64,000 nucleotides of DNA, from positions 93,906-157,905 of the forward strand of contig SVGE01000001.1 in the NCBI GenBank assembly GCA_015056545.1, given 5' to 3'. The notes below the pieces were generated by a model. The model ran no database searches and was not told the origin of the DNA. It saw only the letters and a list, made by a program, of their open reading frames with translations. Shown one piece after another: positions 31,236 to 47,817 of this stretch; the first letter of the stretch is position 1; each line of letters begins with the position of its first letter. A program made the translations under genes and the position numbers. This DNA is from Clostridiales bacterium. GTDB taxonomy: Bacteria; Bacillota; Clostridia; TANB77; SIG350.

Positions 31236-31307
31236 ACTTAATAGTTTTTTACAATAATTTTATATATAAAAACAGATAGTAAATTAAATTACTATCTGTT
31301 ATAATTC

Positions 31308-32492
31308 TTAGTCTTCTACAATTTCTTTAATTCTATTAAATAATTTATTGACTGGAGCATTTTTTACAATTCTAGCAAATAAGTATATGTCTTTTGGAGA
31401 TCCATACTGCATAATAGCATTAGCTAATTTGCTAATTGTAGCCCCACTAACATGAGTTGCAAAATCTTTTATATATTTTGGATCTTTTGATGCAATAACT
31501 GCATCTTCCAATTTTTCAATAGGTGGATTATTTACAATTTGTGCAAAACTAATCAACTGATTTAAATCACCTAACTCGATTAAAACATCAGCCAGTTTTT
31601 CTATAAGATCTCCTTCCGCATATCTGCAAAACATCCGAATATTATATGGCTTTTTAGTAGCAATAATTGCATCTGCTAATTTGTTTTTTGGAGCATTTGC
31701 TACTTTTCTTGCAAATTCATATATATATTCTGGGTTTCCATCTTCAATAACTACATTAGCAAGTTCCTCAGTTTTTATATTAGGATGTACACTTGCAAAC
31801 TTACATGCAAATTTAGCACTTTTAATTTTAATAAGTCCCTCTGCAACCTTTTCCAAATCTATATGTGGAATTCCAGCAAAATCATATACACATTCCGCAT
31901 CACCAATTTCAATAACAGCTTCCAAAAGCTTATTGTTATCTACTTCATCATATGAATATGATGCTATTTCATAAATCCATTCAATTTGTTTTGTTTCAAT
32001 AAGTGCATCTACTAGTTTGTTTATTACTATATGAATTCCAATTTCACTTACACCATCAAAGTCAATTATATTAGAAATAACCTCACTGATAAGCTCCCCA
32101 TCTTTTGCTTGAACAATTATATCAACAAACTTATCTATTGGTAAATTCTCAACATTTCTTGCAAAAAGATAAATAAACTCATCATTTCCCGTTTTTATAA
32201 TTGCATCAGAAAGCTCTCCTATAGGTACACCTTCATACAAAGAAAATTCATATATAAGTTCAGGATTATTAGTGCTAATAACTTCTTGAGCTAATTTATT
32301 AAGAACACTCTCTATTGTAGGAAATATTTCTTTTACCTTTTTTGATTTAACAACTTCTTGTGCAATTTCTTTAACAATATCTGGTTCTTCAAATACTATT
32401 CTATCAATATAGAAATCACACAGCTTTTTTCCTTCTACAATACTTTTAGCTATTTGCTTAACTAACATTTCTTGAACATCACTCTTAAACAT
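31308..32492 (-). CDS. Helical tandem-repeat protein (about eleven 28-aa repeats), paralog 1
   Basis: Repeats of the form ..G.pE(Y/F)IY.FAr.V.nAP..KL.DAII (for example EDGNPEYIYEFARKVANAPKNKLADAII). Confidence 0.6.
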   Translation of the reverse strand: MFKSDVQEMLVKQIAKSIVEGKKLCDFYIDRIVFEEPDIVKEIAQEVVKSKKVKEIFPTIESVLNKLAQEVISTNNPELIYEFSLYEGVPIGELSDAIIKTGNDEFIYLFARNVENLPIDKFVDIIVQAKDGELISEVISNIIDFDGVSEIGIHIVINKLVDALIETKQIEWIYEIASYSYDEVDNNKLLEAVIEIGDAECVYDFAGIPHIDLEKVAEGLIKIKSAKFACKFASVHPNIKTEELANVVIEDGNPEYIYEFARKVANAPKNKLADAIIATKKPYNIRMFCRYAEGDLIEKLADVLIELGDLNQLISFAQIVNNPPIEKLEDAVIASKDPKYIKDFATHVSGATISKLANAIMQYGSPKDIYLFARIVKNAPVNKLFNRIKEIVED

Positions 32493-32545
32493 ACTTTCTC
32501 CTCCTTAAAATAAAGTTAGATTAAAATAAATATTTATTTTGGGTT

Positions 32546-32575
32546 ATTTTATCACAGTTAATATATTTATGTCAA
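32546..32575 (-). promoter_or_regulatory. Promoter TTGACA-18-TGaTAAAAT (copy 1 of a duplicated promoter)
   Basis: Minus-strand TTGACA (32575-32570), an 18-nt spacer, and an extended -10 TGATAAAAT ending at 32546. It is identical to the copy at 34196-34225. Confidence 0.55.
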
Positions 32576-32577
32576 AT

Positions 32578-32607
32578 AAAAACTCTGATAATTAAATCAG
32601 AGTTTTT
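32578..32607 (-). terminator. Terminator after the 76-aa gene
   Basis: aactctgat-aattaa-atcagagtt with flanking T/A runs. Confidence 0.5.
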
Positions 32608-32620
32608 ATAATTTATCTTC

Positions 32621-32851
32621 TTATAGAACTGAAAAATATTTATCTCCCTTAATTTCAACTAAAACAGAATCAAGTAACTCATTAAGAAGATTAAGAACAT
32701 CTTCTTTATTTCCACCAACTTTTTCAAAAAGTTCAGAAAAAGTAAGTCCTTGATCATTTTCAATAAGAGTATCCAGGATTTTTCTCTTTAGAGTTTGCAT
32801 TTTCTTTGTTTTTTTCATAATATTTACCTCTTCAATATTATTGTGCTTCAA
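32621..32851 (-). CDS. Small winged-helix-like DNA-binding protein (76 aa)
   Basis: Pattern ...LKRKILDTLIENDQGLTFSELFEKVGGNKEDVLNLLNELLD...; overlaps the stop of the upstream repeat-protein gene by 14 nt. Confidence 0.4.
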   Translation of the reverse strand: MKHNNIEEVNIMKKTKKMQTLKRKILDTLIENDQGLTFSELFEKVGGNKEDVLNLLNELLDSVLVEIKGDKYFSVL

Positions 32852-34139
32852 TTAATTTGGCTAAAATTGCTTTCTCGATTTTATCTATAGGAGCATTTTT
32901 TATCTCATTTGCAAATTTATACATCCAATAAACTTCTCCTGCTTTTATAACAGCATCAGCATATTTTTCAACATTTATTCCCATAACCGCTTTTGCGTAT
33001 AAAAAAATATATGTAGGATTTCCGATATGAATTAAAGCATTCCCCAATCTTTCCAAAGGAACATACTTTACAGTTGTTGCAAATTCATATATAGCTTTTG
33101 CATCTCCTGTTTGAATAATACCTGTAATTAACTTATTTATTGGAACGTTTCTTATATTTTGTGCAAATTCAATAATATCTTCTACACCTAAAGTAATAAC
33201 TTTTTCAGCAATTTGATTCATATGTTTTTTTGAAAGTTTCAAATCGCTTTCATTTATAATGGAAAAATAGTTTCGTTTAATAATACCTTCTACTATTTTA
33301 TCTTTTGATAAACCCTTTACTTCTTTTACAAATCTGTCAAACCAGTAATCATTTCCTTTTTCAACAACAGTATCAAACAAAACATTTATATCTGCACCTT
33401 CAATATCTGTTGCAAAATGTAAACACATATCTACATCATCTAATTTTGCAATAGCATTACAAAGTTTTATTTTATCCGATTCTTTTACTCTGTCTGCAAG
33501 ATGATATATATCTAATGCCCTATTTGCTTTTATAACAGCATCTTCTATTTTACTTAGAGAAACTCCGTTAATATTACTGTTAGCAAGATCTGCAATATAA
33601 TATTTATTATTTGTTTTAAGAAGTGCGTCTACAAGTTTATTTAAAATTTCTTGTCTATTATCTTTTGCATCAAATATATTGGTTTCTTCTTTAAAGGTAT
33701 TATAAATAAAATTGTATATGTGTTCAGCTTCACTATACTCAACAAGAATATCTACAAATTTATTTACTTTTAATCCTGACATAATCGATGATGCAAAGCT
33801 ACATACATATTTGTAGTCTTTAGTATGGATAATTGCATCAGAAAGCTCATCAATTGCTACAAAATCTGCATTAGTAGCAAAATGATATATATACTTTGCA
33901 TTATTAGTTGCAATAACATGTTTCGCTATCGCTGTAACAATACTTCTTGTTGTTGGAAATTTTTCTTCTACCTTCGGATTTTCTTCATATTTTTCCTGCA
34001 TTACTTTTGTAATATCATATTCATTGATTTCTCCAGAACTTGTTAAGAGTTTAATGTAAAAATCATTTAACGATTTTTCATTAATCAATGCTTCAACAAT
34101 TTCATTTACTAACCGTTCTTTTATTCCTTTTTCTTTCAT
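32838..34139 (-). CDS. Helical tandem-repeat protein, paralog 2
   Basis: Same 28-aa repeat grammar (AKYIYHFATNA, KAIYEFATTVKYVPLERL, YWMYKFANEIKNAPIDKI). Confidence 0.6.
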   Translation of the reverse strand: MKEKGIKERLVNEIVEALINEKSLNDFYIKLLTSSGEINEYDITKVMQEKYEENPKVEEKFPTTRSIVTAIAKHVIATNNAKYIYHFATNADFVAIDELSDAIIHTKDYKYVCSFASSIMSGLKVNKFVDILVEYSEAEHIYNFIYNTFKEETNIFDAKDNRQEILNKLVDALLKTNNKYYIADLANSNINGVSLSKIEDAVIKANRALDIYHLADRVKESDKIKLCNAIAKLDDVDMCLHFATDIEGADINVLFDTVVEKGNDYWFDRFVKEVKGLSKDKIVEGIIKRNYFSIINESDLKLSKKHMNQIAEKVITLGVEDIIEFAQNIRNVPINKLITGIIQTGDAKAIYEFATTVKYVPLERLGNALIHIGNPTYIFLYAKAVMGINVEKYADAVIKAGEVYWMYKFANEIKNAPIDKIEKAILAKLIEAQ

Positions 34140-34195
34140 TTACTATCTCCTCCATTTATAATAAACTTTAGTAATTAAAATATTTAATTTTTCTA

Positions 34196-34225
34196 ATTTT
34201 ATCACAGTTAATATATTTATGTCAA
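34196..34225 (-). promoter_or_regulatory. Promoter TTGACA-18-TGaTAAAAT (copy 2)
   Basis: The same 29-nt core (ttttatcacagttaatatatttatgtcaa) as at 32547-32575. Confidence 0.55.
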
Positions 34226-34273
34226 CAAAAATAAAAAGCTATATAAATATAATTCATATAGCTTAACATTTTT

Positions 34274-34603
34274 TTACATTTCTACTGCTGGTCTTGATGG
34301 CATTGTTGTTTCTTCTACATCCCCTTGTATTTCAGTTGAAGTATCTTCAACAATAATATTATTGTTTTCTATTTGTTCATTTGATGTATTTACTTCAGTT
34401 TCATCTTGTGTTGTATTTTCTTGATTATCTATATTATTTGGTTCATCATCTTTATAATCTACTGGGTTTTGCATTTCATAGTTTTTATTAATAGCTTTAA
34501 CAATATTGTAGTAATCTGTATTTAATATTGTTTTAGCTAATATAGTAAATCCCGCTAATACTAAACTAATTATTAATAACATTTTTTTTGTTCTTTCTTT
34601 CAT
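34274..34603 (-). CDS. Hypothetical secreted acidic protein
   Basis: Signal/anchor helix followed by a Glu/Asn/Thr-rich region. Confidence 0.35.
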   Translation of the reverse strand: MKERTKKMLLIISLVLAGFTILAKTILNTDYYNIVKAINKNYEMQNPVDYKDDEPNNIDNQENTTQDETEVNTSNEQIENNNIIVEDTSTEIQGDVEETTMPSRPAVEM

Positions 34604-47741: not shown

Positions 47742-47817
47742 TGGTTGGGGTACTAGGATTCGAACCTAGGAAATGCCTGAGTCAGAGTCAGGTGCCTTAC
47801 CACTTGGCGATACCCCA
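47742..47817 (-). tRNA. tRNA-Gln (anticodon CUG), CCA encoded
   Basis: Minus-strand sequence UGGGGUAUCGCCAAGUGGUAAGGCACCUGACUCUGACUCAGGCAUUUCCUAGGUUCGAAUCCUAGUACCCCAACCA. It folds as a cloverleaf with a U1-A72 pair, anticodon loop C-U-CUG-A-C and a GGUUCGAAUCC T-arm. Confidence 0.85.

What the first reader, a model, noticed from the sequence alone, without database searches (positions are those of the whole stretch)
31308..34240. Paralogous 28-aa helical-repeat proteins with identical promoters flanking a 76-aa winged-helix-like protein
Two proteins (394 and 433 aa) consist almost entirely of about 11-13 tandem 28-residue repeats with the grammar ..G.pE(Y/F)IY.FAr.V.nAP..KL.DAII. This faintly resembles LRV/HEAT-like helix-turn-helix repeats, but I cannot place it in a named family. 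Each gene is preceded by the same 29-nt promoter core (TTGACA-18-TGaTAAAAT; 32546-32575 and 34196-34225) at the same distance from its start codon. The upstream paralog is translationally coupled to a 76-aa putative winged-helix protein that has its own terminator. A repeat-scaffold pair plus a small DNA-binding protein under a duplicated promoter looks like a dedicated but uncharacterised module.
Basis: partly seen in the sequence, partly recalled or inferred. Interest (0 to 1): 0.6.

Follow-up and report, generated by a model that had tools for sequence, protein, structure and literature searches.

The report
New 28-residue helical-repeat protein family
Two fast-evolving genes of an uncultured gut Clostridiales-type bacterium encode solenoid proteins built from an unnamed 28-residue helical repeat and flank a tiny winged-helix-like gene; the family is large in uncultured gut Firmicutes, but its function is unknown.

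Summary
ORF A (394 aa) and ORF B (433 aa) are 31 % identical paralogs with 11 and 12 units of a 28-residue repeat. Each follows the same 30-nt sigma-A-type promoter.

A profile finds 1,865 protein clusters. Nearly all traced loci are chromosomal, in uncultured gut Bacilli or Clostridia MAGs, often as tandem paralog arrays. None is in phage or plasmid collections.

A syntenic locus in a sister species keeps B, the small gene and A in order. There they form one operon, with no terminator or promoter before A, and the promoter spacer differs at 5 of 13 positions. So the identical promoters reflect a lineage-specific duplication of a promoter cassette, not a conserved operator.

The three genes are among the fastest evolving in the neighbourhood (A 41 %, B 58 %, small 59 % identity; core housekeeping flanks 84-94 %). 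Changes concentrate on the exposed face of the first helix.

The small gene encodes 65 aa, not 76, and does not overlap B.

Most likely these are soluble acidic protein-binding scaffolds of a new repeat family. Their function is inferred, not shown.

The parts
32838..34139 (-). Gene B, 433 aa. N-terminal helical cap of about 63 residues, then 12 units of the 28-residue repeat (residues ~64-426). NCBI MBE5821091.1, annotated 'hypothetical protein'.
32621..32818 (-). Small gene, 65 aa from the ATG at 32818; the 76-aa TTG reading to 32851 is unlikely. Winged-helix-like, with a basic N-terminus and a conserved motif GLTFxEL..KVGGxKEDVLNLxNxL.
31308..32492 (-). Gene A, 394 aa. N-terminal helical cap of about 59 residues, then 11 units of the 28-residue repeat (units start at residues 73, 100, 128, 166, 195, 222, 250, 278, 306, 334, 362). 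pI 4.8, net charge -21.
34196..34225 (-). Promoter of B: TTGACA, 18-nt spacer, TG-n-TAAAAT (extended -10 with a TGTG -16 element).
32546..32575 (-). Promoter of A, identical to that of B over 30 nt. It is part of a ~100-nt promoter and 5'UTR cassette paralogous to the region upstream of B, and is absent from the sister species.
32576..32609 (-). Intrinsic terminator hairpin after the small gene (-15.9 kcal/mol, z -5.2), followed by a U run. Absent from the sister species.
31271..31300 (-). Intrinsic terminator after A (-14.4 kcal/mol, z -5.3). Conserved in the sister species.
34236..34264 (-). Terminator hairpin of the upstream 109-aa gene (-15.8 kcal/mol, z -5.5), immediately before the B promoter.
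32498..32506 (-). Shine-Dalgarno AAGGAGGAG of A.
   Evidence: read directly
34147..34153 (-). Shine-Dalgarno GGAGGAG of B.
   Evidence: read directly
32826..32833 (-). Shine-Dalgarno GAAGAGGT of the small gene, 7 nt before the ATG at 32818.
   Evidence: read directly; the orthologue has AAAGGAG in the same place

Best explanation
A and B are old paralogs of a large family that no library names. Family members are soluble, mostly acidic alpha-solenoid proteins built from a 28-residue helix-loop-helix unit with consensus K-T-G-N/D-A-E-Y-I-Y-x-F-A-R/K-D-V-K-G-A-P-I-E/D-K-L-A/E-D-A-I-I.

The buried and inter-repeat positions (I8, F11, A12, P19, I20, L23, I28) hold the scaffold together. The exposed face of the first helix and the start of the loop (positions 5-7, 10, 13-16, 21) are free to vary. 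I infer that this face is a ligand-binding surface, most likely for proteins, as in HEAT, ankyrin or Sel1 scaffolds, and that paralogs and orthologues diverge in what they bind.

As read from the sister species, the module is one operon: sigma-A-type promoter, B, 65-aa winged-helix-like protein, A, terminator. In the window's lineage a ~100-nt copy of the B promoter and 5'UTR, preceded by a terminator, lies in front of A. The two paralogs therefore now start from identical strong promoters (TTGACA-18-TGnTAAAAT, strong SD).

The small protein is a conserved partner. It is more likely an adaptor subunit than a classical repressor.

Shown: gene structure, repeats, promoter identity, synteny, evolutionary rates and family size. 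Predicted with high confidence, not solved: the fold. Inferred: binding function, the partner role of the small protein, and promoter activity.
For: Repeat and fold:
- Period 28.
- AF2 model with pLDDT 91.9 and pTM 0.82, 26 helices, two per unit.

New family:
- No hit above threshold in Pfam or NCBIfam, and none significant in PHROGs, PADLOC or PDB sequences.
- Profile search: 1,865 cluster representatives at E <= 1e-3 and 309 at E <= 1e-30.

Soluble and acidic: 1 of 165 members has a TM-like segment; median pI 5.7; A has pI 4.8.

Variable face:
- Family entropy is highest at unit positions 10, 13, 6, 21, 14 and 24.
- Between orthologues, identity is 0.31-0.42 at positions 5-7, 10, 13-16 and 21, against 0.69-0.87 at positions 8, 11, 12, 19, 20, 22 and 28.

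Module and rate:
- The syntenic locus L065 has B(434)-small(64)-A(402) between the same flanking genes.
- Identities are A 41, B 58 and small 59 %, against RNase R 94, DUF512 90, MscS 89, Mfd 89, RluD 86 and PrsA 85 %.

Promoter history:
- In L065 the small-A gap is 34 nt, with an RBS only.
- The B promoter keeps the -35, CTGTG and -10 elements but differs at 5 of 13 spacer positions.
- UTR identities are winA-winB 39/55, winB-L065B 46/58 and winA-L065B 43/55.
- Paralogs sharing promoter and UTR blocks recur elsewhere in the family: 60 nt identical in L016, and six paralogs in UMGS1045.
Against: - No direct evidence exists for any ligand, and no model coordinates were available to map surfaces.
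- No conserved non-family neighbour points to a pathway.
- High divergence could simply reflect weak constraint on a dispensable protein. Between strains pN/pS is about 0.4-0.5, from only 14 differences.
- Without an outgroup, loss of the A promoter in the sister species cannot be excluded.
- The zero differences in the ~14 unconstrained spacer positions, where about 3-4 would be expected, could mean gene conversion or selection and not merely recency.
- The small protein's fold model is only moderately confident (pLDDT 78, C-terminus < 50).
Confidence: 0.55

Rival explanations
1. Dedicated regulatory module. The small winged-helix protein is a DNA-binding autoregulator that recognises an operator inside the identical promoter spacer and so co-regulates A and B.
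For: - The 30/30 identity includes about 14 positions that sigma-A needs no particular base at. Given the 25-29 % divergence of the adjoining UTR, chance identity there is about 0.02.
- The small gene sits in the operon and is conserved in the sister species.
- Weak wHTH hits: HTH_24 0.019, TcaR/MarR 0.0027, PADLOC WH_III-A 2e-4.
Against: - The spacer differs at 5 of 13 positions in the orthologous B promoter.
- A second strain carries a spacer substitution in the A promoter.
- The only dyad is an 8-bp AATATATT, which is trivial at 25 % GC.
- The predicted recognition helix NKEDVLNLLNEL is acidic or neutral.
- The sister species has a single promoter.
- All wHTH hits are below threshold.
Confidence: 0.15
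2. Rapidly diversifying intracellular recognition or decoy proteins, for example immunity-type proteins against toxins, or sensors or decoys for proteins of phages or conjugative elements.
For: - Tandem same-strand paralog arrays occur in 22 of 50 genomic loci, and several genomes have multiple loci.
- A is the fastest-evolving gene in its neighbourhood, and B and the small gene are among the fastest.
- Variability is confined to one face.
- Three members are fused to a PcfJ-like domain and one to AAA_5.
- One paralog pair lies next to a VirD4/TraG-like gene.
Against: - No toxin, LXG/RHS or defence gene is a recurrent neighbour.
- There are no PADLOC hits.
- The family is absent from IMG/VR, INPHARED phages and PLSDB plasmids.
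- The flanks are housekeeping genes.
Confidence: 0.15
3. Modular nucleic-acid-binding repeats of the PPR, PUF or TALE type, with one unit per base.
Against: - The proteins are acidic (A pI 4.8, family median 5.7).
- There is no conserved basic stripe. The conserved K/R at positions 13, 16 and 22 are matched by D/E at 14, 21 and 25.
- The unit has two helices in 28 residues, not the PPR, PUF or TALE geometry.
- No Pfam PPR, PUF or TAL hits.
Confidence: 0.05
4. Divergent members of a named repeat family (LRV, HEAT/PBS-lyase, Sel1/TPR or clathrin heavy-chain repeat).
For: - Sub-threshold Pfam Clathrin hit in A only (E 2.4e-4, 21.3 bits against a 29.6 cut-off).
- A BFVD Foldseek hit annotated 'Leucine rich repeat variant' (E 2e-4, TM 0.22).
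Against: - None of these models reaches E <= 10 in B or in an 8-unit consensus, and none is among the matches reported for the 33 + 53 members screened at E <= 0.01 / 1e-4.
- Unit lengths differ (24 for LRV, 34-47 for the others).
- TM-scores and identities are at generic-solenoid level.
Confidence: 0.07
5. Artefact: the paralogs or promoters come from an assembly duplication, or the ORFs are non-coding.
For: None beyond the exact 30-nt repeat.
Against: - The genes are only 31 % identical at protein level.
- The same arrangement is found in independent assemblies: L001 at 99 % and L068 identical.
- It is also found in a diverged sister species.
- The fold prediction is confident.
Confidence: 0.01

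Closest known systems
HEAT/ARM-type alpha-solenoid scaffolds (e.g. PP2A A subunit; CpcE/F PBS-lyase HEAT-like repeats)
   Different: The unit is 28 residues, not 37-47. No HEAT, HEAT_2, HEAT_PBS or Arm HMM hit at E <= 10. Sequence identity is 6-10 %. No partner is known.
De novo designed helical repeat proteins (DHR series, circular tandem repeat proteins)
   Different: This family is natural, with variable caps and irregular units. The resemblance is geometric, not evolutionary.
Leucine-rich repeat variant (LRV, PF01816)
   Same: One phage protein annotated LRV is a weak Foldseek hit (E 2e-4, TM 0.22).
   Different: The LRV period is 24 residues, with alpha and 3-10 helices. No PF01816 hit at E <= 10 on A, B or the consensus.
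Sel1-like, TPR and ankyrin repeat expansions in host-associated bacteria
   Same: Multi-copy, tandemly duplicated, fast-diverging repeat-protein families in bacteria with a host-associated lifestyle. They appear in the Foldseek hits.
   Different: Their unit lengths are 33-44. They are usually secreted or carry signal peptides, whereas 164 of 165 members here lack any hydrophobic segment. There are no HMM hits.
PPR / Pumilio RNA-binding repeats
   Different: They have basic RNA-binding surfaces, 35-36-residue units and, for PUF, three helices per unit. The proteins here are acidic.
Minimal winged-helix domains (HTH_24/Lrp, MarR, Csa3 WH; wH domain 2xvc, deposited under the name 'ESCRT-III')
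   Same: The small protein has an H1-H2-turn-H3 layout plus a likely C-terminal hairpin (VLVEIKGDKYFSV). Weak hits to many wH families appear in four libraries.
   Different: All hits are below threshold. The wing is not modelled. The recognition helix lacks basic residues, so a protein-binding role is as likely as DNA binding.

Membership tests
Unnamed 28-residue 'YIYxFA...KLxDAII' repeat family (defined here) | Several tandem 28-residue units matching the unit profile, with full-length similarity to family members. | tested here: met
   Unit HMM scores A at 1.3e-28 and B at 8.6e-19, and nothing else in the window scores. A reaches E 1e-45 to family members. B itself is cluster representative P0056 in the profile search.
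Alpha-solenoid (helical repeat) fold class | Two antiparallel helices per unit, stacked into a continuous superhelix. | tested here: met
LRV (PF01816) | 24-residue unit and a match to the Pfam model. | tested here: not met
   The period is 28. No hit at E <= 10.
HEAT / HEAT_PBS / ARM | A match to Pfam HEAT-clan models and units of about 37-47 residues. | tested here: not met
   No hit at E <= 10 for A, B or the consensus, and none among the matches reported for the 86 members screened at E <= 0.01 (33 members) or E <= 1e-4 (53 members). The unit is 28 residues.
Clathrin heavy-chain repeat (PF00637) | A score at or above the gathering threshold of 29.6 bits. | tested here: not met
   A scores 21.3 bits; B has no hit; 1 of 33 members hits.
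PPR/PUF/TALE nucleic-acid-binding repeats | A basic binding surface, 33-36-residue units and family HMM matches. | tested here: not met
   pI 4.8 and 5.6. The unit is 28 residues. There are no HMM hits. Binding itself could not be tested.
Winged-helix HTH (small protein) | A three-helix bundle with an HTH, followed by a beta-hairpin wing. | tested here: inconclusive
   Three helices are predicted and the C-terminal 'wing' has low confidence. Only sub-threshold HMM hits, though all are to wH families.
Winged-helix HTH (small protein) | Sequence-specific DNA binding. | not testable with these tools
   Needs EMSA or footprinting. The acidic recognition helix argues weakly against it.
Sigma-A (sigma-70-type) promoter with extended -10 | TTGACA, a 16-18-nt spacer and TG-n-TATAAT-like hexamer upstream of the gene. 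| tested here: met
   11 of 12 hexamer matches plus TG at both sites. These elements are conserved in the orthologous promoter while the spacer drifts. Activity was not tested.
Conserved three-gene module (B-small-A) | The same gene order and orientation in independent genomes. | tested here: met
   Present in L065, a sister species with core housekeeping flanks 84-94 % identical, and in strains L001 and L068. Absent from the other family loci examined, so it is clade-specific.

The most novel reading that the evidence does not exclude
The family is an intracellular, rapidly diversifying recognition system of uncultured gut Firmicutes. Its paralog arrays of idealised 28-residue solenoids would evolve a hypervariable helix-A face to bind, and so sense or neutralise, foreign proteins from phages, conjugative elements or toxins. 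In this clade a winged-helix partner would couple them to DNA or to each other. That would be a new kind of bacterial repeat-based immunity or decoy system.
Probability: 0.12. Interest if true: 0.75.

Novelty: new variant of a known kind. Interest (0 to 1): 0.4.

Why it matters
- It defines a sizeable protein family (1,865 clusters at 50 % identity in a 1.84-billion-protein library) that no curated library names. Traced loci are nearly all in uncultured, low-GC gut Bacilli and Clostridia MAGs, where several genomes carry many paralogs.
- The unit is unusually short and regular. Its nearest structural neighbours are computer-designed repeat proteins, so it could interest protein engineers as a natural 28-residue scaffold.
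- The locus is a clean example of promoter-cassette duplication splitting an operon.
- It also shows a repeat-protein module evolving several-fold faster than its housekeeping flanks.
- It does not by itself resolve any open biological question, because the function remains inferred.

Tried and rejected
- Named repeat families: Pfam and NCBIfam scans found nothing above threshold. They covered A, B, the small protein, an 8-unit consensus and 106 family members. The SH3_6, OHA, Mcp5_PH, GP63 and PARP_reg 'hits' are sums of tiny partial matches inside the repeats, with 0 stretches passing on their own, and were discarded.
- Defence or phage origin: PADLOC and PHROGs were negative. IMG/VR gave 0 confirmed loci. 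INPHARED phages and PLSDB plasmids gave no tblastn match.
- Solved relatives by sequence: nothing significant; best were 3kor at E 0.15 and a sugar kinase at 0.079.
- Conserved neighbours: clustering of 540 flanking ORFs from 54 loci gave no recurrent partner.
- Regulon search with the promoter: the 30-mer had 0 hits in JGI metagenomes. A 21-mer had 6 hits in unrelated contigs of GC 22-48 %, about the chance level, and none was next to a family gene.
- Operator dyad: only an 8-bp AT palindrome.
- RNA element in the 5'UTRs: no Rfam hit in the window except one tRNA.
- The first conclusion, that the small protein is an orphan and the trio is not conserved, was overturned by the syntenic locus L065. 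The word-indexed search had missed a 59 % orthologue.
- Not available or failed: the afdb50 fold library, a family-wide alignment for locus search (replaced by a 2-unit alignment), and a profile search with the 56-column alignment, which returned only fragments.
- Two literature searches found nothing on this family.
Full report
**What is in the sequence**

On the minus strand the window carries three features in order:
- B, 32838-34139, 433 aa.
- A small ORF, 32621-32851, 76 aa if read from the TTG.
- A, 31308-32492, 394 aa.

A and B align end to end at 31 % identity (E 1e-47).

BLOSUM autocorrelation of each protein peaks at lags 28 and 56. The lag-28 value is about 10 sd above the best lag of 1000 shuffles. 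A unit HMM, together with reading in register, gives 11 units in A and 12 in B. Each protein has one irregular 38-41-residue unit and an N-terminal helical cap of about 60 residues.

At DNA level the units are 60-73 % identical at multiples of 84 nt, and there is no recent tandem DNA repeat. This excludes an assembly artefact.

The 30-mer TTGACATAAATATATTAACTGTGATAAAAT occurs exactly twice, at 32546-32575 and 34196-34225, with none expected by chance. It reads as TTGACA, an 18-nt spacer and TG-n-TAAAAT. It lies 53 nt before the A start and 56 nt before the B start.

Three hairpins followed by U runs fold at -14.4 to -15.9 kcal/mol, with z of -5.2 to -5.5:
- 34236-34264, before the B promoter.
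- 32576-32609, after the small gene.
- 31271-31300, after A.

**The small gene**

- The TTG start has no Shine-Dalgarno. The ATG at 32818 has GAAGAGGT 7 nt upstream.
- Gene callers report a 65-aa product.
- The orthologue in a sister species is 64 aa. It also starts at an ATG 19 nt after the B stop.

The protein is therefore 65 aa. It is co-transcribed with B but does not overlap it.

Its best profile matches are all winged-helix families, and all are below threshold:
- Pfam HTH_24 at 0.019, plus IclR, MCM4_WHD and RPA_C.
- NCBIfam TcaR/MarR at 0.0027 and Lrs14.
- PADLOC WH_III-A at 2e-4 and Csa3.
- PDB 2xvc, a winged-helix domain deposited under the name 'ESCRT-III', at E 0.3.

AF2 with only two sequences gives three helices (residues 2-20, 27-34, 38-62) at pLDDT 78, with an unreliable C-terminus. 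The two orthologues conserve GLTFxEL..KVGGxKEDVLNLxNxL and KYF. That matches an H2-turn-H3-wing layout, but the putative recognition helix is acidic or neutral.

I rate the winged-helix fold as likely and DNA binding as open.

**Fold and family of A and B**

With a 33-sequence alignment, AF2 models A at pLDDT 91.9 and pTM 0.82 as 26 helices, two per unit. This is an alpha-solenoid.

Sequence identities are 6-13 %. Foldseek against the PDB and BFVD gives TMq <= 0.35.

No Pfam or NCBIfam model passes threshold, and nothing significant appears in PHROGs, PADLOC or PDB sequences, for A, B, an 8-unit consensus or 106 family members. The apparent SH3_6, OHA and similar scores are summed micro-matches inside the repeats. 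In particular, LRV, HEAT, HEAT_PBS, TPR, Sel1 and ANK do not hit A, B or the consensus even at E <= 10.

The family is nevertheless large. A profile search of 1.84 billion cluster representatives finds 1,865 at E <= 1e-3, 1,151 at <= 1e-10 and 309 at <= 1e-30.

The unit consensus is K-T-G-N/D-A-E-Y-I-Y-x-F-A-R/K-D-V-K-G-A-P-I-E/D-K-L-A/E-D-A-I-I. Positions 10, 13, 6, 21, 14 and 24 are the most variable.

Members have no signal peptide or TM segment (1 of 165 has a TM-like stretch) and are mostly acidic. The median pI is 5.7; A has pI 4.8 and net charge -21; B has pI 5.6.

**Who has it, and in what context**

The window is from a MAG labelled 'Clostridiales bacterium'. B is MBE5821091.1, annotated as hypothetical. 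GC is about 25 %.

A scan of one genome per GTDB species with a canonical two-unit alignment returned 52 loci.
- Almost all are from uncultured gut Bacilli, 'Tenericutes' or Clostridia MAGs. Sources include rabbit, Hadza human and chicken gut, among them Mycoplasma sp. CAG:776, UMGS1045 and Candidatus Pelethosoma.
- Several genomes have multiple loci.
- In 22 of the 50 loci with family genes, two to four paralogs sit in tandem on one strand.

The flanks are ordinary chromosomal genes with no recurrent partner. The family is absent from IMG/VR, INPHARED and PLSDB.

Paralogs within a genome often share promoter and 5'UTR blocks:
- 60 nt identical in L016.
- Six UMGS1045 paralogs share TTGAAAATATATATTTAATATGTTATTATA.

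The family therefore spreads by duplication of whole promoter-gene-terminator cassettes.

**The decisive comparison**

P0071, a 41 % identical collinear relative of A, lies on a 17-kb contig, L065, that is syntenic with the window. The order is Mfd, PrsA, VanW, MscS, a 129-aa gene, B orthologue (434 aa), small orthologue (64 aa), A orthologue (402 aa), DUF512, LspA, RluD, and on to RNase R and MiaB.

Amino-acid identities to the window proteins:

| Protein | Identity (%) |
|---|---|
| RNase R | 94 |
| DUF512 | 90 |
| MscS | 89 |
| Mfd | 89 |
| MiaB-like | 87 |
| RluD | 86 |
| PrsA | 85 |
| VanW | 76 |
| DUF4358 | 73 |
| LspA | 64 |
| 188-aa protein | 59 |
| small protein | 59 |
| 109-aa protein | 58 |
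| B | 58 |
| A | 41 |

The trio is thus a conserved unit. A is the fastest-evolving gene in the neighbourhood, and B and the small gene are among the fastest.

Between orthologues, change is concentrated at unit positions 5-7, 10, 13-16 and 21 (identity 0.31-0.42). Scaffold positions 8, 11, 12, 19, 20, 22 and 28 stay at 0.69-0.87. The family-wide entropy shows a similar pattern.

**Promoter history**

In L065 the gap between the small gene and A is 34 nt and holds only a ribosome-binding site. There is no hairpin and no promoter. The terminator after A is conserved. There the three genes form one operon.

The orthologous B promoter reads TTGACATAATTAATATATCTGTGATAAAAT. It keeps the -35, CTGTG and -10 elements but differs at 5 of 13 spacer positions.

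UTR identities are 39/55 for window A against window B, 46/58 for window B against L065 B, and 43/55 for window A against L065 B. The copy in front of A is therefore about as old as the species split, far younger than the A/B gene duplication.

About 16 of the 30 identical positions are those a strong sigma-A promoter would fix anyway. The remaining ~14 identical spacer positions are mildly unexpected (about 0.02 at 25 % divergence). That leaves room for gene conversion or co-regulation.

Several observations argue against a long-conserved operator:
- The spacer differs between species.
- A second strain has a spacer polymorphism (A to C at 32566).
- No real dyad is present.

Without an outgroup I cannot exclude that the sister species lost the second promoter.

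**Mechanism I commit to**

A and B are soluble, acidic alpha-solenoid scaffolds. The exposed helix-A face is a diversifying binding surface, most likely for proteins. They are strongly expressed from sigma-A-type promoters together with a small winged-helix-like partner.

In this lineage a duplicated promoter cassette and a terminator split the operon into two transcription units with identical start signals.

- Shown: the gene, repeat and promoter anatomy, the synteny, the rate contrast and the family's size.
- Predicted with high confidence but not solved: the fold.
- Inferred: the binding function, the partner role of the small protein and promoter activity.

Overall confidence is about 0.55.

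The rivals are an autoregulatory operator model, an immunity or decoy system, nucleic-acid binding, membership of a named repeat family, and artefact. They are weighed separately in the report sections.

**Comparison with what is known, and verdict**

The proteins work like HEAT, ankyrin or Sel1-type scaffolds. Geometrically they resemble designed helical repeat proteins. They fail every membership test I could run for named families.

I classify this as a new repeat family within the known class of alpha-solenoids, that is, a new variant of a known kind.

Interest is moderate (0.4). It is a real, sizeable piece of protein 'dark matter' with a tidy evolutionary story, but it has no demonstrated function and no cultured host.

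Noticed in passing
window 34274-34603 (-): A 109-aa gene directly upstream of the B promoter encodes an N-terminal TM helix followed by an acidic, N/E/T-rich low-complexity tail. It is conserved next to the trio in the sister species (129 aa) but only 58 % identical, so it evolves about as fast as B. It could belong to the same module.
   Followed up: partly
L066 164-3197 (same sample as L065): The sample that yielded the sister-species contig also has a contig with two more tandem family paralogs (480 and 489 aa). They lie next to a VirD4/TraG-like coupling protein and a SpoIIGA-type peptidase. The second paralog has a TGTGATAAAAT extended -10 and a similar 5'UTR. The window's genome may likewise hold more paralogs outside the 64 kb.
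   Followed up: partly
L002 8001-9668; L009 5362-6891; L070 3808-8303: In several genomes, family genes sit at the same chromosomal spot, between mreC-mreD-M23-M50 (SpoIVFA/FB-like) and the rplU-Prp-rpmA operon. In L070 the family gene (498 aa) sits there between two tightly packed unannotated genes (252 and 735 aa). This looks like a recurrent insertion site.
   Followed up: partly
P0052 and two members of alignment A10; P0137: Three family members carry a PcfJ-like domain (PF14284, best E 9e-17) and one an AAA_5 ATPase domain. These are the only credible domain fusions seen in 106 members scanned.
   Followed up: no
L012 3640-11339 and L019 4507-7152 (UMGS1045); L017; L005: Six paralogs in one 'Tenericutes' MAG, and relatives in two other assemblies, share an almost identical terminator, promoter and 5'UTR block (ACTTGAAAATATATATTTAATATGTTATTATAcTAGGCAATCAAGGAGG). 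Their proteins are only 48-65 % identical. Upstream regions evolve more slowly than the coding repeats across the family.
   Followed up: partly
window 31308-32492: The exact 394-aa sequence of A is reported as absent from the 15-billion-protein collection. Yet B, the flanking genes and an identical contig (L068, with a 394-aa gene called) are present. This is probably an indexing gap. It is also why the first homology search showed no self-hit.
   Followed up: partly
window 1-64000: GC skew is strongly negative on the + strand almost throughout, and nearly all long ORFs are on the - strand. The window therefore lies on one replichore with the - strand leading. The only RNA gene found is tRNA-Gln(CTG) at 47742-47817.
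   Followed up: no
L054, L055 (bin labelled Phocaeicola vulgatus) and L058 (Thermoplasmata archaeon MAG): Family-like hits occur in taxonomically odd bins. The two short contigs in a Bacteroidota bin look like binning contamination. The archaeal hit is marginal (E 4e-4, 30 residues).
   Followed up: no
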